NCBI RefSeq assembly: GCF_054482595.1
Contig: NZ_CM137008.1
Direction: 5' to 3' (one strand)
Length of the DNA stretch: 64,000 bases
Under the pieces are notes generated by a model. The model was not told the origin of the DNA. It did no database searches and saw only the letters and a program-made list of their open reading frames with translations. The translations under genes and the position numbers were made by a program. Positions 2,400 through 29,258 of the stretch are shown here, piece by piece. Within the stretch, counting starts at the first letter, position 1. Every line of letters begins with the position of its first letter.

Positions 2400-3191
2400 A
2401 TGGGTAAACTCACGGGCAAGACAGCACTGATTACGGGCGCATTGCAGGGAATTGGCGAAGGAATTGCCAGAACTTTTGCGCGTCATGGCGCAAACCTAAT
2501 CTTGCTGGATATCTCCCCTGAGATCGAAAAGCTGGCGGACGAACTGTGTGGTCGTGGTCATCGCTGTACGGCGGTTGTCGCCGATGTGCGTGACCCGGCG
2601 TCGGTAGCCGCAGCTATCAAACGCGCGAAGGAAAAAGAAGGGCGCATTGATATCCTGGTGAATAACGCAGGCGTTTGTCGTCTGGGCAGTTTCCTCGATA
2701 TGAGCGATGACGATCGCGATTTCCATATTGACATCAATATTAAAGGCGTATGGAACGTCACGAAGGCGGTGCTGCCGGAGATGATTGCCCGCAAAGATGG
2801 TCGCATTGTGATGATGTCTTCGGTCACTGGCGATATGGTGGCCGATCCGGGTGAAACGGCGTACGCCTTAACGAAAGCGGCGATTGTTGGCCTGACAAAA
2901 TCGCTGGCGGTGGAGTATGCGCAGTCTGGTATTCGCGTTAACGCCATATGCCCTGGATACGTTCGCACACCAATGGCGGAAAGCATTGCCCGCCAGTCGA
3001 ACCCGGAAGATCCAGAGTCAGTGCTGACTGAAATGGCAAAAGCAATCCCGCTGCGTCGCCTCGCCGATCCGCTGGAAGTCGGCGAACTGGCGGCCTTCCT
3101 CGCATCGGATGAATCCAGCTATTTAACCGGTACACAGAATGTGATTGATGGCGGCAGCACACTGCCGGAGACGGTTAGCGTCGGTATCTGA
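2400..3191 (+). CDS. ucpA: Short-chain dehydrogenase/reductase (oxidoreductase UcpA)
   Basis: 263 aa from ATG at 2400; TGxxxGIG Rossmann motif (TGALQGIGEGIA) and YxxxK-type SDR fold; position between murR and cysP. Confidence 0.9.
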   Translation: MGKLTGKTALITGALQGIGEGIARTFARHGANLILLDISPEIEKLADELCGRGHRCTAVVADVRDPASVAAAIKRAKEKEGRIDILVNNAGVCRLGSFLDMSDDDRDFHIDINIKGVWNVTKAVLPEMIARKDGRIVMMSSVTGDMVADPGETAYALTKAAIVGLTKSLAVEYAQSGIRVNAICPGYVRTPMAESIARQSNPEDPESVLTEMAKAIPLRRLADPLEVGELAAFLASDESSYLTGTQNVIDGGSTLPETVSVGI

Positions 3192-3204
3192 TTCACCTCT
3201 GTTT

Positions 3205-3240
3205 CCTCCCTGCATGTGTGGGGAGGATTTCGTCTTATTC
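3205..3240 (+). terminator. Putative intrinsic terminator downstream of ucpA
   Basis: Inverted repeat cctccc-N9-ggggagg followed by a T-rich tract. Confidence 0.4.
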
Positions 3241-3348
3241 CCTTTTCAACTTCCAAATCACCAAACGGTATATAAAACCGTTACTCCTTTCACGTCCGTT
3301 ATAAATATGATGGCTATTAGAAAGTCATTAAATTTATAAGGGTGCGCA

Positions 3349-4365
3349 ATGGCCGTTAACTTACTGAAAAAGAACTCACTCGCGCTGGTCGCTTCTCTGC
3401 TGCTGGCGGGCCATGTACAGGCAACGGAACTGCTGAACAGTTCTTATGACGTCTCCCGCGAGCTGTTTGCCGCCCTGAACCCGCCGTTTGAACAGCAATG
3501 GGCCAAAGATAACGGCGGCGACAAACTGACGATAAAACAATCTCATGCCGGGTCATCAAAACAGGCGCTGGCAATTTTGCAGGGCTTAAAAGCCGACGTT
3601 GTCACTTATAACCAGGTGACCGACGTACAAATTCTGCACGATAAAGGCAAGCTTATCCCGGCGGACTGGCAGTCGCGCCTGCCGAATAATAGCTCGCCGT
3701 TCTACTCCACCATGGGCTTCCTGGTGCGTAAGGGCAACCCGAAGAATATCCACGACTGGAACGACCTGGTGCGCTCCGACGTGAAACTGATTTTCCCGAA
3801 CCCGAAAACGTCGGGTAACGCGCGTTATACCTATCTGGCGGCATGGGGCGCAGCGGATAAAGCTGACGGTGGCGACAAAGCCAAAACCGAACAGTTTATG
3901 ACCCAGTTCCTGAAAAACGTTGAAGTGTTCGATACTGGCGGTCGTGGCGCGACCACCACTTTTGCCGAGCGCGGCCTGGGCGATGTGCTGATCAGCTTCG
4001 AGTCGGAAGTGAACAACATCCGCAAACAGTATGAAGCGCAGGGCTTTGAAGTGGTGATTCCGAAAACCAACATTCTGGCGGAATTCCCGGTGGCGTGGGT
4101 CGATAAAAACGTGCAGGCCAACGGTACGGAAAAAGCAGCAAAAGCCTACCTGAACTGGCTCTACAGCCCGCAGGCGCAAACCATCATCACCGACTATTAC
4201 TACCGCGTGAATAACCCGGAAGTCATGGACAAACTGAAAGATAAATTCCCGCAGACCGAGCTGTTCCGCGTGGAAGACAAATTTGGCTCCTGGCCGGAAG
4301 TGATGAAAACCCACTTCACCAGCGGCGGCGAGTTAGACAAGCTGTTAGCGGCGGGGCGTAATTAA
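3349..4365 (+). CDS. cysP: Thiosulfate/sulfate-binding periplasmic protein
   Basis: 338 aa with signal peptide; first gene of cysPUWA(M) cluster. Confidence 0.95.
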
Positions 4366-5198
4366 TGTTTGCAGTTTCTTCAAGACGCGTGCTGCCGGGC
4401 TTTACCTTAAGCCTCGGCACCAGTCTGCTGTTTGTTTGCCTGATTTTGCTGCTGCCGCTTTCCGCGCTGGTGATGCAGCTTTCTGAGATGAGCTGGGCGC
4501 AGTACTGGGAAGTGATCACCAACCCGCAGGTGGTCGCGGCCTACAAAGTGACGCTGCTGTCGGCGTTTGTGGCATCAATTTTTAACGGCGTTTTCGGCCT
4601 GCTGATGGCGTGGATTTTAACCCGTTATCGCTTTCCGGGCCGCACGCTGCTTGATGCGCTGATGGATTTACCCTTTGCGCTGCCAACGGCAGTCGCCGGT
4701 TTAACGCTGGCCTCGCTCTTTTCTGTAAACGGTTTTTACGGTGAATGGCTGGCGAAGTTTGATATCAAAGTCACCTATACATGGCTGGGGATTGCGGTGG
4801 CGATGGCCTTTACTAGCATTCCGTTTGTGGTACGTACCGTGCAGCCGGTGCTGGAAGAGTTAGGCCCGGAATATGAAGAAGCGGCGGAAACGCTTGGTGC
4901 AACGCGCTGGCAGAGTTTCTGCAAAGTGGTGCTGCCGGAACTTTCTCCGGCGCTGGTGGCGGGCGTGGCGTTGTCGTTTACCCGTAGTCTTGGTGAGTTT
5001 GGCGCGGTGATATTTATCGCCGGGAACATCGCCTGGAAGACGGAAGTGACGTCGCTGATGATTTTTGTGCGCTTGCAGGAGTTTGATTACCCGGCGGCGA
5101 GCGCGATTGCTTCGGTGATCCTCGCGGCATCCCTGATACTGCTGTTCTCAATTAACACTCTGCAAAGTCGCTTTGGTCGGCGTGTGGTAGGTCATTAA
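4365..5198 (+). CDS. cysU: Sulfate/thiosulfate ABC transporter permease
   Basis: 277 aa multi-TM permease; start overlaps cysP stop (translational coupling). Confidence 0.95.
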   Translation: MFAVSSRRVLPGFTLSLGTSLLFVCLILLLPLSALVMQLSEMSWAQYWEVITNPQVVAAYKVTLLSAFVASIFNGVFGLLMAWILTRYRFPGRTLLDALMDLPFALPTAVAGLTLASLFSVNGFYGEWLAKFDIKVTYTWLGIAVAMAFTSIPFVVRTVQPVLEELGPEYEEAAETLGATRWQSFCKVVLPELSPALVAGVALSFTRSLGEFGAVIFIAGNIAWKTEVTSLMIFVRLQEFDYPAASAIASVILAASLILLFSINTLQSRFGRRVVGH

Positions 5199-6073
5199 TG
5201 GCGGAAGTTACCCAATTGAAGCGTTATGACGCGCGCCCGATTAACTGGGGCAAATGGTTTCTGATTGGCATCGGGATGCTGGTATCGGCGTTCATCCTGC
5301 TGGTGCCGATGATTTACATCTTCGTGCAGGCATTCAGCAAGGGGCTGATGCCGGTTTTACAGAATCTGGCCGATCCGGACATGCTGCACGCGATTTGGCT
5401 GACGGTGATGATCGCGCTGATTGCCGTACCGGTAAACCTGGTGTTCGGCATTCTGCTGGCCTGGCTGGTGACGCGCTTTAACTTCCCTGGACGCCAGTTA
5501 CTGCTGACGCTACTGGACATTCCGTTTGCCGTATCGCCGGTGGTTGCCGGTCTGGTGTATCTGCTGTTCTACGGCTCTAACGGCCCGCTGGGCGGCTGGC
5601 TGGATGAACATAATCTGCAAATTATGTTCTCCTGGCCGGGAATGGTGCTGGTCACCATCTTTGTGACGTGTCCGTTTGTGGTGCGCGAGCTGGTGCCGGT
5701 GATGTTAAGCCAGGGCAGCCAGGAAGACGAAGCGGCGATTTTGCTTGGCGCGTCTGGCTGGCAGATGTTTCGCCGCGTCACATTGCCGAACATTCGCTGG
5801 GCGCTGCTTTATGGCGTGGTGTTGACCAACGCCCGCGCAATTGGCGAGTTTGGCGCGGTGTCGGTGGTTTCCGGCTCGATTCGCGGCGAAACCCTGTCGC
5901 TGCCGTTACAGATTGAATTGCTGGAGCAGGACTACAACACCGTCGGCTCCTTTACCGCTGCGGCGCTGTTAACGCTGATGGCGATTATCACCCTGTTTTT
6001 AAAAAGTATGTTGCAGTGGCGCCTGGAGAATCAGGAAAAACGCGCACAGCAGGAGGAACATCATGAGCATTGA
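5198..6073 (+). CDS. cysW: Sulfate/thiosulfate ABC transporter permease
   Basis: 291 aa permease; start overlaps cysU stop. Confidence 0.95.
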
Positions 6074-7160
6074 GATTGCCAATATTAAGAAGTCGTTTGG
6101 TCGCACCCAGGTGCTGAACGATATCTCACTGGATATTCCTTCAGGTCAGATGGTCGCGTTGCTGGGGCCGTCCGGTTCCGGGAAAACCACGCTGCTGCGC
6201 ATTATCGCTGGGCTGGAGCATCAAACCAGCGGGCATATTCGCTTCCACGGCACCGACGTGAGCCGCCTGCACGCACGTGATCGTAAAGTCGGTTTCGTGT
6301 TCCAGCATTACGCGCTGTTCCGCCATATGACGGTGTTCGACAATATCGCTTTTGGCCTGACGGTGCTGCCGCGTCGCGAGCGCCCGAATGCCGCAGCCAT
6401 CAAAGCGAAAGTGACAAAATTGCTGGAAATGGTGCAGCTTGCCCATCTGGCGGATCGTTATCCGGCGCAGCTTTCCGGCGGCCAGAAACAGCGTGTGGCG
6501 CTGGCGCGCGCGCTGGCTGTGGAACCGCAAATTCTGCTGCTTGATGAACCGTTTGGCGCGTTGGATGCGCAGGTGCGTAAAGAGCTGCGTCGCTGGCTGC
6601 GTCAACTCCATGAAGAGCTGAAATTCACCAGCGTGTTCGTGACCCATGACCAGGAAGAAGCGACCGAAGTAGCTGATCGTGTAGTGGTGATGAGCCAGGG
6701 CAATATCGAGCAGGCTGATGCGCCGGACCAGGTATGGCGCGAACCAGCGACCCGTTTTGTACTCGAATTTATGGGCGAAGTGAACCGCCTGCAGGGAACC
6801 ATTCGCGGCGGGCAGTTCCATGTTGGCGCACATCGCTGGCCGCTGGGCTACACACCTGCGTATCAGGGGCCGGTGGATCTCTTCCTGCGCCCGTGGGAAG
6901 TGGATATCAGCCGCCGTACCAGTCTCGATTCGCCGCTGCCGGTACAGGTACTGGAAGCCAGCCCGAAAGGTCACTACACCCAATTAGTGGTGCAGCCGCT
7001 GGGGTGGTACAACGAACCGCTGACGGTCGTGATGCATGGCGACGATGCCCCGCAGCGTGGCGAGCGTTTATTCGTTGGTCTGCAACATGCGCGGCTGTAT
7101 AACGGCGACGAGCGTATCGAAACCCGAGATGAGGAACTTGCTCTCGCACAAAGCGCCTGA
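6063..7160 (+). CDS. cysA: Sulfate/thiosulfate ABC transporter ATP-binding protein
   Basis: 365 aa; Walker [13 protein letters not shown] signature LSGGQKQR; overlaps cysW by 11 nt. Confidence 0.95.
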
Positions 7161-7181
7161 TAGGTTGAGTGAATGTTAAAC

Positions 7182-7214
7182 GCCCGGAGGCGCTTCCCGC
7201 GATCCGGGCTTTTT
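7182..7214 (+). terminator. Terminator-like hairpin in cysA-cysM intergenic region
   Basis: gcccgga ... tccgggc stem followed by ttttt. Confidence 0.35.
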
Positions 7215-7237
7215 AATGGCAAGGTTTGTAACCTGTA

Positions 7238-7270
7238 GGCCTGATAAGACGCGCAAGCGTCGCATCAGGC
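7238..7270. repeat. REP (repetitive extragenic palindromic) element
   Basis: ggcctgataagacgcgcaagcgtcgcatcaggc, a typical E. coli REP palindrome; a near-identical copy at 29203..29234. Confidence 0.8.
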
Positions 7271-7293
7271 AACACCACGTATGGACAGAGATC

Positions 7294-8205
7294 GTGAGTA
7301 CATTAGAACAAACAATAGGCAATACGCCTCTGGTGAAGTTGCAGCGAATGGGGCCGAATAACGGCAGTGAAGTGTGGTTAAAACTGGAAGGCAATAACCC
7401 GGCCGGTTCGGTGAAAGATCGTGCGGCGCTTTCGATGATCGTCGAGGCGGAAAAGCGCGGGGAAATTAAACCGGGTGATGTGTTAATCGAAGCCACCAGT
7501 GGTAACACCGGCATTGCGCTGGCAATGATTGCCGCGCTTAAAGGCTATCGCATGAAATTGCTGATGCCCGACAACATGAGCCAGGAACGCCGTGCGGCGA
7601 TGCGTGCTTATGGTGCGGAACTGATTCTTGTCACCAAAGAGCAGGGCATGGAAGGTGCGCGCGATCTGGCGCTGGAGATGGCGAATCGTGGCGAAGGAAA
7701 GCTGCTCGATCAGTTCAATAATCCCGATAACCCTTATGCGCATTACACCACCACCGGGCCGGAAATCTGGCAGCAAACCGGCGGGCGCATCACTCATTTT
7801 GTCTCCAGCATGGGGACGACCGGCACTATCACCGGCGTTTCACGCTTTATGCGCGAACAATCCAAACCGGTAACGATTGTCGGCCTACAGCCGGAAGAGG
7901 GCAGCAGCATTCCCGGCATTCGCCGCTGGCCTGCGGAGTATATGCCGGGGATTTTCAACGCTTCGCTGGTGGATGAGGTGCTGGATATTCATCAGCGCGA
8001 TGCGGAAAACACCATGCGCGAACTGGCGGTGCGGGAAGGAATATTCTGTGGCGTCAGCTCCGGCGGCGCGGTTGCCGGAGCACTGCGGGTGGCAAAAGCT
8101 AACCCTGACGCGGTGGTGGTGGCGATCATCTGCGATCGTGGCGATCGCTACCTTTCTACCGGGGTGTTTGGGGAAGAGCATTTTAGCCAGGGGGCGGGGA
8201 TTTAA
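7294..8205 (+). CDS. cysM: Cysteine synthase B (O-acetylserine sulfhydrylase B)
   Basis: 303 aa from GTG at 7294 (VSTLEQTIGNTPLVKL...), PLP-dependent fold; ORF-track extension across the REP rejected. Confidence 0.92.
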   Translation: MSTLEQTIGNTPLVKLQRMGPNNGSEVWLKLEGNNPAGSVKDRAALSMIVEAEKRGEIKPGDVLIEATSGNTGIALAMIAALKGYRMKLLMPDNMSQERRAAMRAYGAELILVTKEQGMEGARDLALEMANRGEGKLLDQFNNPDNPYAHYTTTGPEIWQQTGGRITHFVSSMGTTGTITGVSRFMREQSKPVTIVGLQPEEGSSIPGIRRWPAEYMPGIFNASLVDEVLDIHQRDAENTMRELAVREGIFCGVSSGGAVAGALRVAKANPDAVVVAIICDRGDRYLSTGVFGEEHFSQGAGI

Positions 8206-8207
8206 GA

Positions 8208-8576
8208 TTATTGCGCAGGCACTGTTTTATCCGTCTGCGCAATTAACGCATGTAAAAAAGGCTGTGCATTCTCATCGCTCTTACCGGGCATCTTCACGAT
8301 ATACGGCTTCCCGGTAATCGATGATGACGAAGCAACCTTATCAATAAACTGCTCGGCAGTGTTAATGCGGTTACGGGTATTGCCGAGCTTCAGACGCAGA
8401 TGAGAAACCGCTTCATCGCAGGTATGTTCATCACCGTTGCGCACAAATATCAAATCCTTTTTCTGTGCTAATCCCTCCAGCATGGCGTTGATGCGGGCTT
8501 CTTCATGGGCAGTTAACTTCGCGTAAGCGGGGAGTGTCATTAGTAGTGTAATGACCAGACAAATGATTTTCTTCAT
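8208..8576 (-). CDS. yfeK: Secreted/lipoprotein-like protein YfeK (DUF5329-type)
   Basis: 122-aa ORF with signal peptide, matches YfeK as recalled; divergent from pdxK; its stop lies 2 nt from the cysM stop. Confidence 0.8.
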
Positions 8577-8601
8577 TGAATTACCTTATCCTTGTTTTGT
8601 G

Positions 8602-8667
<66 letters not shown>

Positions 8668-8680
8668 GAGAAAAAATTAA

Positions 8681-9532
8681 ATGAGTAGTTTGTTGTTGTT
8701 TAACGATAAGAGCAGGGCACTGCAGGCGGATATCGTCGCCGTGCAGTCGCAGGTAGTGTACGGCAGCGTAGGCAACAGCATTGCGGTGCCTGCTATCAAA
8801 CAGAACGGTCTGAATGTCTTTGCCGTGCCGACGGTATTGCTGAGCAATACGCCGCATTATGACACTTTCTACGGTGGTGCGATTCCGGACGAATGGTTTA
8901 GCGGCTATTTGCGTGCGCTTCAGGAGCGTGATGCGCTGCGCCAACTTCGAGCTGTAACCACGGGCTATATGGGAACGGCATCGCAAATCAAAATCCTTGC
9001 CGAGTGGCTGACTGCGCTACGCAAAGACCATCCTGACCTATTGATCATGGTCGATCCGGTGATTGGCGATATTGATAGCGGAATTTATGTCAAACCTGAC
9101 CTTCCCGAGGCGTATCGACAATATTTACTGCCACTAGCGCAGGGAATTACCCCCAATATCTTTGAGCTGGAAATCCTGACCGGTAAAAATTGCCGCGATC
9201 TCGACAGTGCCATTGCTGCCGCAAAAAGTCTGCTTTCAGACACATTAAAATGGGTGGTGATTACCAGCGCCTCCGGTAATGAAGAAAATCAGGAGATGCA
9301 GGTGGTGGTGGTCAGTGCCGACAGCGTGAATGTCATTTCCCATTCACGGGTAAAAACCGACCTTAAAGGGACTGGCGACCTGTTTTGTGCTCAGCTCATC
9401 AGTGGCTTGCTGAAAGGGAAGGCGTTAACCGATGCAGTGCACCGAGCGGGGTTGCGCGTACTGGAAGTGATGCGCTACACCCAGCAGCATGAGAGCGATG
9501 AATTGATTTTGCCGCCGCTGGCGGAAGCATAA
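8681..9532 (+). CDS. pdxK: Pyridoxal/pyridoxine/pyridoxamine kinase
   Basis: 283 aa, ribokinase-like fold; matches PdxK. Confidence 0.93.
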
Positions 9533-20408: not shown

Positions 20409-20469
20409 ATCGCAGATAGCAAAAAAGCGCCTTTAGGGCGCTTTTTTACATTGGTGGGTCGTGCAGGAT
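20409..20469 (-). repeat. Distal copy of a 61-bp direct repeat: lysV 3'-terminal 18 nt plus downstream terminator (att-like scar)
   Basis: Identical to 20565..20625; contains tRNA-Lys 3' end (revcomp ATCCTGCACGACCCACCA) and the hairpin aaaagcgccctaaaggcgctttttt. Confidence 0.85.
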
Positions 20470-20564: not shown

Positions 20565-20625
20565 ATCGCAGATAGCAAAAAAGCGCCTTTAGGGCGCTTT
20601 TTTACATTGGTGGGTCGTGCAGGAT
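20565..20625 (-). repeat. Proximal copy of the 61-bp direct repeat (overlaps the 3' end of intact lysV and its terminator)
   Basis: Exact 61/61 match to 20409..20469. Confidence 0.85.
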
Positions 20626-27870: not shown

Positions 27871-29118
<1,248 letters not shown>

Positions 29119-29145: not shown

Positions 29146-29234
<89 letters not shown>

Positions 29235-29258
29235 ATTGTGCTCCATTGGCGAATGTGT

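What the first reader, a model, noticed from the sequence alone, without database searches (positions are those of the whole stretch)
7161..7293. cysA-cysM spacer carries a terminator-like hairpin and a REP element
cysM is generally considered cotranscribed with cysPUWA, yet the 133-bp spacer holds a hairpin followed by a T tract (7182..7214) and a REP palindrome (7238..7270). These could cause partial termination or transcript stabilisation and so uncouple cysM levels from the transporter genes.
Basis: partly seen in the sequence, partly recalled or inferred. Interest (0 to 1): 0.25.

Follow-up and report, generated by a model that had tools for sequence, protein, structure and literature searches.

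The report
Terminator hairpin and REP before cysM
The gap between the E. coli sulfate-transporter gene cysA and the cysteine synthase gene cysM holds a terminator-like hairpin, found at this position across most enterobacteria, plus a later-inserted REP repeat; together they probably lower cysM expression relative to the transporter, an ordinary kind of operon fine-tuning that has not been tested by experiment.

Summary
The window is E. coli. cysA ends at 7160 and cysM starts with GTG at 7294, so the spacer is 133 nt. It holds a GC hairpin (7182-7209, -19 kcal/mol) followed by TTTTT (7210-7214), and a canonical REP (GTAG 7235-7238 plus palindrome 7239-7270, -22.5 kcal/mol).

The two elements differ in kind.
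- **Hairpin:** it is single-copy and nearly invariant in 5,425 of 5,426 E. coli genomes. A GC hairpin with a T-rich tail lies between cysA and cysM in 44-52 of 57-59 Enterobacterales species, although its sequence differs by genus. In several Enterobacteriaceae that hairpin is itself a REP.
- **REP:** it is multi-copy and is an Escherichia-lineage insertion between the hairpin and the cysM ribosome site.

In relatives only 18-36 nt separate the T run from the GTG. That leaves no room for a promoter, so cysM must be reached by read-through.

Best reading: a moderate intrinsic terminator acts as an attenuator after cysA, and the REP is a secondary barrier to 3' exonucleases.

No 3'-end or transcription-start data for this locus could be retrieved, so the function is inferred. 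This is a new member of a known kind, of low to moderate interest.

The parts
6063..7160 (+). cysA, the last transporter gene; stop TGA at 7158-7160, followed at once by an in-frame TAG
   Evidence: ORF list. RefSeq annotation on an identical record. 100% tblastn identity to MG1655 CysA.
7161..7293 (+). cysA-cysM spacer, 133 nt
   Evidence: The whole spacer folds at -48.8 kcal/mol, z = -3.0.
7182..7209 (+). GC-rich hairpin: a 7-bp outer stem plus a 3-bp inner stem. It is single-copy in E. coli and, by sequence and position, related to a REP family of other Enterobacteriaceae.
   Evidence: Fold of -19.1 kcal/mol. One place per genome and at least 95% identity in 5,425 of 5,426 E. coli genomes. 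Aligned with hairpins at the same position in 18 other loci, 95% of cells are paired and two pairs show compensatory changes.
7210..7214 (+). T5 tract (TTTTTAAT) immediately 3' of the stem. Together with the hairpin it forms an intrinsic-terminator-like unit.
   Evidence: Sequence. Terminator score d = +14.6, rank 13 of 21 positive sites in the window.
7235..7270 (+). REP element: GTAG at 7235-7238 plus an imperfect palindrome at 7239-7270
   Evidence: Fold of -22.5 kcal/mol, z = -5. Second copy at 29198-29235. Multiple places per genome. Partial naRNA4 match. Absent from the Citrobacter and Lelliottia spacers.
7283..7291 (+). Putative weak Shine-Dalgarno region (GGACAGAGA) of cysM, predicted to be unpaired
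   Evidence: The 3' end of the spacer is unpaired in the minimum-energy and centroid folds. Its assignment as the ribosome site is an inference.
7294..8205 (+). cysM (cysteine synthase B), GTG start
   Evidence: A GTG start is found in nearly all 59 orthologous loci.

Best explanation
**Proposed mechanism.**
- The hairpin with its U tract (7182-7214) is an intrinsic terminator of moderate strength at the end of cysA.
- Some RNA polymerases stop there. This yields a cysPUWA mRNA whose 3' end is protected by the hairpin.
- The remaining polymerases read through and are the source of cysM mRNA.
- Read-through, a weak ribosome site and a GTG start together would set CysM synthesis below that of the transporter.
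- The REP (7235-7270) was inserted later in the Escherichia lineage, between the terminator and the cysM ribosome site.
- On read-through transcripts the REP can act as a second barrier to 3'-to-5' exonucleases. In about three quarters of E. coli genomes the cysM 3' end has no terminator hairpin of its own, so decay from that end would remove cysM and spare cysPUWA.

**Shown here:** the structures, their copy number, their conservation and their positions.

**Inferred:** termination in vivo, the read-through fraction, and any stabilising effect.
For: **Terminator anatomy.** A stable GC hairpin is directly followed by T5, 21 nt after the cysA stop. Its terminator score of +14.6 falls within the range of the positive sites in the same window, but below the strongest ones, which score 28-45.

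**Conservation.**
- The hairpin is single-copy and at least 95% identical in 5,425 of 5,426 E. coli genomes.
- The variant seen, C to T at the last stem base, keeps a G-U pair and lengthens the T run.
- 52 of 57 Enterobacterales spacers have a closed GC hairpin with at least 5 T in the next 8 nt.
- 44 of 59 score d > 0, with a median of 20, even though the sequences are unrelated between genera.
- Within Enterobacteriaceae, 95% of cells are paired, with compensatory C-G/G-C and U-A/A-U changes.

**Dependence on read-through.** In spacers without insertions the stem ends 18-36 nt from the GTG. No sigma-70-like promoter was found anywhere in 2500-9500.

**REP as a late addition.** It is absent from the 66-68-nt spacers of Citrobacter and Lelliottia. 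At the same place, locus L003 carries a two-REP unit.

**No terminator after cysM.** The cysM and yfeK stop codons are 2 nt apart in the window and in 4,038 of 5,426 genomes.

**Transcript hints.** In two E. coli RNA-seq lists cysW and cysA are induced, and in one of them also cysU (3.4, 6.9 and 9.9-fold). cysM is not listed in either (PMC13393413). Authors disagree on whether cysM is a separate operon (PMC4705995, versus PMC3082872).
Against: - No mapped 3' end, transcription start or read-through measurement for this locus could be retrieved.
- The hairpin's apical region is 14 nt with an internal mini-helix, and the U tract has only 5 U. The simple scanner did not call it, so termination may be inefficient.
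- In Salmonella Weltevreden cysM (4.46-fold) is induced almost as much as cysAWTP (5.56-fold).
- In three species the same unit (hairpin, T run, about 19 nt, GTG) follows a different gene. It follows a rhamnosidase gene in L013 and L021, and a divergently oriented DUF5329 gene in L018. The unit therefore travels with the 5' side of cysM, and in L018 it would lie in a cysM leader.
- Stem covariation may reflect maintenance or replacement of REP palindromes at the DNA level rather than selection on RNA.
- The d-score formula was recalled from memory and used with modern energy parameters, so only ranks within the window are meaningful.
Confidence: 0.55

Rival explanations
1. **RNA stability or processing element, or a neutral relic.** The hairpin is a decayed REP that terminates little or nothing. 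It and the REP affect only mRNA decay: as a barrier to 3' exonucleases, or as a 5' stem-loop that protects a processed cysM mRNA. Alternatively they have no measurable effect on cysM.
For: - The hairpin aligns with GTAG-bearing REPs at the same position in other Enterobacteriaceae. That palindrome family is dispersed in Klebsiella, Enterobacter, Salmonella and Citrobacter replicons.
- The hairpin unit stays next to cysM when the upstream gene is different.
- cysM is co-induced with cysAWTP in Salmonella.
- The large apical loop and the failure of the scanner.
Against: - A T-rich tail accompanies the hairpin in 52 of 57 species. This includes genera whose hairpins are not REP-like and look like strong textbook terminators, such as Cedecea, Siccibacter, Xenorhabdus and Acerihabitans, with d of 39-50. 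A mere stabiliser needs no U tract.
- The hairpin is nearly invariant in E. coli, although it is single-copy there and so is not maintained by REP mobility.
Confidence: 0.22
2. **Full terminator with an independent cysM promoter.** cysPUWA ends at the hairpin, and cysM is a separate transcription unit. In E. coli its promoter would lie in the 84 nt downstream of the T run, or would overlap the hairpin.
For: - One paper lists cysPUWA and cysM as separate operons (PMC4705995).
- cysM is absent from lists in which cysW and cysA are induced.
- cysM is found behind unrelated genes in L013, L018 and L021.
Against: - No sigma-70-like promoter was found in 2500-9500.
- In 17 Enterobacteriaceae only 18-21 nt separate the stem from the GTG, which is too short for a promoter plus a leader.
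- The 65 nt added in E. coli are mostly a REP.
- cysM responds together with the transporter genes in Salmonella.
Confidence: 0.1
3. **Small RNA from the cysA 3' UTR.** The end of cysA together with the terminator is released as a regulatory small RNA, as happens at other terminators inside operons.
For: - The terminator lies inside an operon.
- The roughly 20 nt between the stop codon and the hairpin are partly conserved in Enterobacteriaceae (TAGGTT..ATGTTTATC).
Against: - The U tract has only 5 U, which is short for Hfq-dependent small RNAs (established knowledge).
- The region upstream of the hairpin is not conserved beyond the family.
- No Rfam family matches other than the REP-derived partial hit.
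- Nothing was found in the literature searches.
Confidence: 0.04

Closest known systems
Attenuating terminators inside operons (rplL-rpoB attenuator; T1 between rpsU and dnaG; the frd terminator upstream of ampC). Recalled from established knowledge, not tested here.
   Same: An intrinsic-terminator-like hairpin lies between two co-oriented genes, and the downstream gene has no evident promoter of its own. Its expression would therefore be set by read-through.
   Different: Termination at the cysA-cysM hairpin has not been measured. The hairpin here appears to derive from a REP palindrome and has a large, structured apical region.
REP stabilisers between the genes malE-malF and hisJ-hisQ (Newbury, Higgins and colleagues, 1987). 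Recalled from established knowledge.
   Same: A REP lies in the spacer between genes of an ABC-transporter operon, downstream of the gene expected to be more highly expressed. The predicted effect is protection of the upstream mRNA segment from 3'-to-5' exonucleases.
   Different: There is a single REP here, and it lies behind a terminator-like hairpin that could do the same job. Its insertion is restricted to the Escherichia lineage.
BIME-associated transcription attenuation (Espeli and colleagues, 2001). Recalled from established knowledge.
   Same: Repetitive palindromes between genes of one operon lower downstream transcription.
   Different: That effect involves pairs of inverted REPs and depends on Rho. 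E. coli has one canonical REP here. True inverted REP pairs occupy this spacer in Enterobacter, Pluralibacter, Pseudescherichia and L003.
REP-dependent translational down-regulation when a REP lies within about 15 nt of a stop codon (Liang, Rudd and Deutscher, 2015). Recalled from established knowledge.
   Same: A REP lies downstream of a coding gene.
   Different: The REP starts 74 nt after the cysA stop and the hairpin 21 nt after it. Both are outside the distance given for that mechanism.

Membership tests
Intrinsic (Rho-independent) terminator | Stable GC-rich stem-loop on the transcribed strand | tested here: met
   7-bp outer stem with 6 G-C pairs plus a 3-bp inner stem; -19.1 kcal/mol, z = -2.7.
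Intrinsic (Rho-independent) terminator | U-rich tract immediately 3' of the stem | tested here: met
   TTTTTAAT starts at the base after the stem. T-tail score 3.88, against 3.8-5.2 for the stronger sites in the window.
Intrinsic (Rho-independent) terminator | Compact hairpin with a loop of 3-8 nt | tested here: not met
   The apical region is 14 nt with an internal 3-bp helix, and the consensus scanner did not report the site. On the composite score it is positive (d = 14.6) but below the best terminators in the window, which score 28-45.
Intrinsic (Rho-independent) terminator | Position downstream of a stop codon, beyond the reach of the terminating ribosome | tested here: met
   The stem starts 21 nt after the TGA. 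In spacers without insertions in other species the distance is 17-32 nt.
Intrinsic (Rho-independent) terminator | RNA 3' ends mapped at the U tract, or termination shown in vitro | not testable with these tools
   No usable 3'-end tables were held.
REP (repetitive extragenic palindromic) element | Imperfect palindrome of about 30-40 nt | tested here: met
   7239-7270: two helices of 7 and 5 bp with symmetric 2-nt internal loops; -22.5 kcal/mol, z = -5.
REP (repetitive extragenic palindromic) element | Conserved GTAG tetranucleotide at the foot of the palindrome | tested here: met
   GTAG at 7235-7238; the same in the second copy at 29198-29235.
REP (repetitive extragenic palindromic) element | Many dispersed copies in the same genome | tested here: met
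   A second copy in the window. A median of 5 and up to 18 megablast places per E. coli genome for a query containing it, whereas the hairpin segment gives 1.
REP (repetitive extragenic palindromic) element | Location outside genes | tested here: met
   It lies between cysA and cysM. The second copy lies about 80 nt after ORF 27880-29118.
REP (repetitive extragenic palindromic) element | The hairpin 7182-7209 as a REP in its own right | tested here: not met
   It is single-copy in E. coli and has no GTAG. It aligns with GTAG-bearing, dispersed palindromes of other genera at the same position. It is therefore best described as REP-derived, not as a current REP family member in E. coli.
BIME (a pair of inverted REPs) | Two or more REPs in alternating orientation | tested here: not met
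   The E. coli spacer has only one canonical REP. Pairs occur in L002, L003, L011, L012, L015-L017, L019 and L048.
REP-mediated ribosome stalling | REP within about 15 nt of the stop codon | tested here: not met
   The distance is 74 nt for the REP and 21 nt for the hairpin.
Hfq-dependent small RNA derived from a 3' UTR | Terminator with a long U tail, and a conserved seed region upstream | tested here: not met
   There are only 5 U. The upstream 20 nt are not conserved beyond Enterobacteriaceae. No Rfam small-RNA match other than the partial REP-derived hit.

The most novel reading that the evidence does not exclude
The terminator between cysA and cysM is a conserved and regulated gate, not a fixed attenuator. 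Read-through, and therefore thiosulfate-dependent cysteine synthesis by CysM, would be switched by a condition or factor such as sulfur source, anaerobiosis or an anti-termination protein. This would explain two observations. A terminator-like hairpin has been kept directly upstream of cysM across Enterobacterales. It also stays with cysM when the upstream gene changes.
Probability: 0.1. Interest if true: 0.55.

Novelty: new member of a known kind. Interest (0 to 1): 0.28.

Why it matters
cysPUWAM is usually treated as one uniform operon. If the hairpin terminates a substantial share of transcripts, then CysM, the enzyme that lets enterobacteria use thiosulfate and grow without CysK, is expressed by read-through. 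Its level would be set or modulated separately from the transporter. That would explain inconsistent operon assignments and the RNA-seq lists in which cysA responds and cysM does not.

The comparison across species also gives a clear case of a terminator position being kept while its sequence turns over. It shows REP palindromes serving as, or decaying into, terminator-like hairpins, and a spacer that repeatedly collects mobile repeats.

None of this changes current concepts. It refines the annotation of a well-known locus.

Tried and rejected
**Literature.**
- Searches for any description of a cysA-cysM terminator or REP found nothing specific.
- The original sequence paper (Sirko et al. 1990, PMC209146) is not held.

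**Transcript data.**
- Two data sets have supplements held as text, and neither contains cysA, cysM or the coordinates 25396xx: Adams 2021 and SMRT-Cappable-seq 2018.
- Five other data sets have no supplements held as text: Choe 2022, the 2025 3'-seq comparison, the nanopore 2022 study, Dar and Sorek 2018, and Conway 2014.
- The transcription-start papers (Thomason 2015, Kroger 2012) are not held.

**Other checks.**
- The RefSeq MG1655 record in this collection lists no feature in the spacer. My attempt to see whether it lists REPs at all, at the malE-malF spacer, used wrong coordinates and landed inside malG. Whether K-12 annotation already names this REP is therefore unknown.
- The consensus scanner found no sigma-70 promoter in 2500-9500 and did not flag the hairpin.
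- The first Python terminator scan timed out and was rewritten.

**Ideas rejected.**
- A bidirectional terminator: the minus-strand tail is GTTTAACA, with only 3 T.
- An N-terminal extension of CysM from the in-frame ATG at 7216: the spacers of relatives differ in length and frame, and the GTG start is conserved.
- REP-dependent ribosome stalling: the distance from the stop codon is too large.

Full report
**Observation**

The window is E. coli. An 0.9-kb stretch around the finding is 100% identical to strain XH990 and 96-100% identical in 5,422 of 5,426 complete genomes, where RefSeq annotates cysA and cysM. The ORFs at 3349-4365, 4365-5198, 5198-6073 and 6063-7160 have the order and sizes expected for cysP, cysU, cysW and cysA; only cysA was checked directly. 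cysM starts with GTG at 7294 and ends at 8205. The spacer 7161-7293 is 133 nt and differs from MG1655 at two bases.

The hairpin is GCCCGGA (7182-7188) paired with TCCGGGC (7203-7209), with an inner 3-bp helix, followed by TTTTT at 7210-7214. It folds at -19.1 kcal/mol (z = -2.7).

The REP is GTAG (7235-7238) plus the imperfect palindrome 7239-7270. It folds at -22.5 kcal/mol (z = -5.0; 0 of 200 shuffles as good).

**Is it more than chance?**

I computed the classical composite terminator score (hairpin energy per nucleotide plus a weighted T tail). The formula of d'Aubenton-Carafa et al. 1990 was recalled from memory and used with ViennaRNA energies, so only ranks within the window are used. 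Only 21 sites on both strands of the 64-kb window score above 0, and those I placed against genes lie at gene ends. The cysA hairpin scores +14.6, rank 13, against 28-45 for the strongest. The chance of such a site in a given 133-nt stretch is about 0.02. The tool's simple scanner did not list it, because the apical region exceeds its 3-8 nt loop rule.

The REP has a 92% identical second copy at 29198-29235, with 0 expected by chance. It accounts for the multiple megablast places per genome, a median of 5. It also gives a partial hit to Rfam's REP-derived naRNA4 model, E = 9e-5, below the gathering score.

**The two elements are different things**

A 64-nt query covering only the hairpin finds one place per genome, at least 95% identical, in 5,425 of 5,426 E. 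coli genomes and identical in most. It is therefore a fixed, single-copy feature. The common variant, C to T at the last stem base, keeps a G-U pair and lengthens the T run. E. albertii has the same change. The REP, by contrast, is a dispersed repeat.

**Comparison across species**

One scan of species-representative genomes with CysM returned 80 loci. cysA lies directly upstream of cysM in about 60 of them, all of the order Enterobacterales by their record titles; two are metagenome bins named only to a higher rank.

- Spacers range from 50 to 375 nt, plus one of 1,378 nt.
- 52 of 57 usable spacers contain a closed GC hairpin followed by at least 5 T in 8 nt, usually better than their own dinucleotide shuffles.
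- On the composite score, 44 of 59 are above 0, the median is 20, and 22 exceed 25.
- The hairpin sequences are unrelated between genera. Examples are GCGGCC..GGCCGC in Cedecea, Siccibacter and Shimwellia, GGGCGGG..CCCGCCC in Pantoea, and GGCAACC..GGTTGCC in Serratia. What is kept is a structure at a position, not a sequence.
- In spacers without insertions, the stem starts 17-32 nt after the cysA stop and ends 18-36 nt before the GTG.

**The hairpin derives from a REP**

In Enterobacter, Pluralibacter, Pseudescherichia, Phytobacter and others, the hairpin next to the T run is preceded by GTAG (GTAG-GCCSGGTAAGCG..CCSGGC-TTTTTT). It is often paired with an inverted copy upstream, forming a pair of inverted REPs. 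That palindrome is dispersed at 71 places, nearly all with no annotated gene under the match, in 36 plasmid-collection records of Klebsiella, Enterobacter, Salmonella, Citrobacter and Escherichia.

Citrobacter and Lelliottia have a single such palindrome without GTAG in a 66-68-nt spacer. The E. coli hairpin sits at the same distance from the stop, with similar flanks, and aligns with these palindromes. Across the 23 sequences, 95% of cells are paired. There are compensatory C-G/G-C changes in 7 sequences and U-A/A-U changes in 4. The structure exceeds all 500 shuffles on percentage paired, cells changed on both sides and covariation score, though not on the two counts of pairs or pair types, and it exceeds all slid controls.

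The caveat is that REP palindromes can be maintained or replaced at the DNA level. This covariation is therefore not independent proof of selection on the RNA.

**The E. coli REP is a later insertion**

In 17 Enterobacteriaceae the stem ends 18-21 nt from the GTG. In Escherichia the distance is 84-85 nt, because about 65 nt containing the REP lie in between. Locus L003 carries two REPs at that place.

The spacer is a general sink for repeats and insertions:
- a roughly 130-150-nt repeat in Yersinia and Serratia, and a 1.4-kb insertion in Rahnella bruchi;
- IS200C immediately after the T run in E. coli strain AST205.

**Mechanism**

The best-supported reading is an attenuating intrinsic terminator after cysA.
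- Polymerases that stop give cysPUWA mRNA with a protective 3' hairpin.
- Polymerases that read through give cysM mRNA. Read-through, a GTG start and a weak ribosome site together would keep CysM low.
- Read-through is required because relatives have no room for a promoter between the T run and the GTG, and no sigma-70-like promoter was detected.
- The cysM ribosome site is predicted to be unpaired, so neither structure should block translation.
- The REP would matter only on read-through transcripts, as a second exonuclease barrier.

The exonuclease barrier is plausible because in this window, and in 4,038 of 5,426 E. coli genomes, the cysM and yfeK stop codons are 2 nt apart with no terminator hairpin after cysM. 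K-12 instead has yfeS and two REPs there.

All functional steps are inferred. Nothing here measures transcripts.

**Hints from published data are mixed**
- In two E. coli RNA-seq tables cysW and cysA are induced, and in one also cysU (3.4, 6.9 and 9.9-fold). cysM is not listed as changed in either (PMC13393413 Tables S3 and S4).
- In Salmonella Weltevreden cysM rises 4.46-fold against 5.56-fold for cysAWTP (PMC4265072).
- Papers disagree on whether cysM is part of the operon (PMC3082872; PMC4705995).

**Evidence against the simple model**

In L013 and L021 a rhamnosidase gene replaces cysA upstream of the same spacer, with the junction at the stop codon. In L018 a divergently oriented DUF5329 gene lies upstream. 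All three keep the unit of hairpin, T run, about 19 nt and GTG. The unit therefore travels with cysM, and in L018 it would be a leader structure. This favours either weak termination or a role in cysM mRNA processing or stability. I keep that as the main rival (0.22). The other rivals are a full terminator with a separate cysM promoter (0.10) and a small RNA from the cysA 3' UTR (0.04).

**Comparison with known systems** (from established knowledge)

The arrangement works like the terminators inside operons at rplL-rpoB, rpsU-dnaG and frd-ampC, and like the REP stabilisers between malE-malF and hisJ-hisQ.
- It is not a pair of inverted REPs in E. coli, because there is only one canonical REP.
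- It is not a case of REP-dependent ribosome stalling, because the REP is 74 nt from the stop.
- It lacks the long U tail typical of Hfq-dependent small RNAs.

**Verdict**

This is an ordinary kind of element: a new member of a known kind. The modest additions are these:
- The terminator position is conserved across the order.
- The hairpin is REP-derived.
- The REP is a late passenger.

Interest is about 0.28.

Noticed in passing
window 8203-8210: The cysM stop (TAA, 8203-8205) and the stop of the convergent yfeK (8208-8210 on the minus strand) are 2 nt apart. There is no yfeS gene and no terminator hairpin between them. The same junction occurs in 4,038 of 5,426 E. coli genomes. K-12 instead carries yfeS and two REPs there.
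   Followed up: partly
window 7216-7293: An ATG at 7216, right after the T run, is in frame with cysM and gives a mechanical 329-aa ORF that runs through the REP. A gene caller could mis-start cysM here. Relatives keep the GTG start while their spacers differ in length and frame.
   Followed up: partly
L084 and L086 (E. coli AST205, NZ_AP043614.1 2599541-2599999): An IS200C element, with an annotated tnpA, is inserted immediately after the T run of the cysA hairpin. It separates the hairpin from cysM and offers a natural test of whether cysM needs read-through.
   Followed up: partly
L013 249-2930, L021 252-2933, L018 3-2776: In Kluyvera genomosp. 1, Enterobacteriaceae RIT691 and Enterobacter sp. 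ENT03, an alpha-L-rhamnosidase gene lies upstream of cysM instead of cysA. ENT03 also has a divergent DUF5329 gene there. In L013 and L021 the junction is at the stop codon (TGATAG, then GTT or CTT), and the hairpin and T run are kept.
   Followed up: partly
L033 2774-3000, L039 2773-3000, L053 2768-3000, L034 1623-3000: The cysA-cysM spacer collects insertions. Yersinia and Serratia plymuthica have a roughly 130-150-nt structured repeat, flanked in Serratia by two copies of the hairpin. Rahnella bruchi has a 1.4-kb insertion.
   Followed up: no
L007 2956-2981 versus L008 2956-2981: Two Citrobacter species carry the same outer stem, but the inner part of the palindrome is in opposite orientation (TGGCGCTACGCTTA versus TAAGCGCTGCGCC). 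This suggests inversion or replacement of the REP core at a fixed site.
   Followed up: no
window 29198-29235: A second copy of the same REP type (GTAT plus palindrome, 92% identical) lies about 80 nt downstream of ORF 27880-29118.
   Followed up: partly
L001 (MG1655) versus window 7239: K-12 MG1655 has A instead of G at the first base of the REP stem (GTAGAC versus GTAGGC), which weakens the outer helix by one pair. There is also a C to T change near the cysM ribosome site.
   Followed up: no
window 3204-3227: A terminator-like hairpin (TCCTCCC..GGGAGGA followed by a T-rich tail, d = +4.7) lies between the upstream ORF, which ends at 3191, and cysP. It probably insulates the cysP promoter.
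   Followed up: no
window 20421-20447 and 20577-20603: Identical symmetric hairpins (AAAAAAGCGCCTTTAGGGCGCTTTTTT) that score as terminators on both strands are repeated within a cluster of repeated tRNA-like sequences.
   Followed up: no
PMC13393413 Table S3 (E. coli APEC94 lsrR deletion): The reported fold changes rise along the operon: cysU 3.4, cysW 6.9, cysA 9.9. cysP and cysM are not listed. This gradient would fit 3'-proximal stabilisation up to the cysA hairpin, but it comes from a single data set.
   Followed up: no
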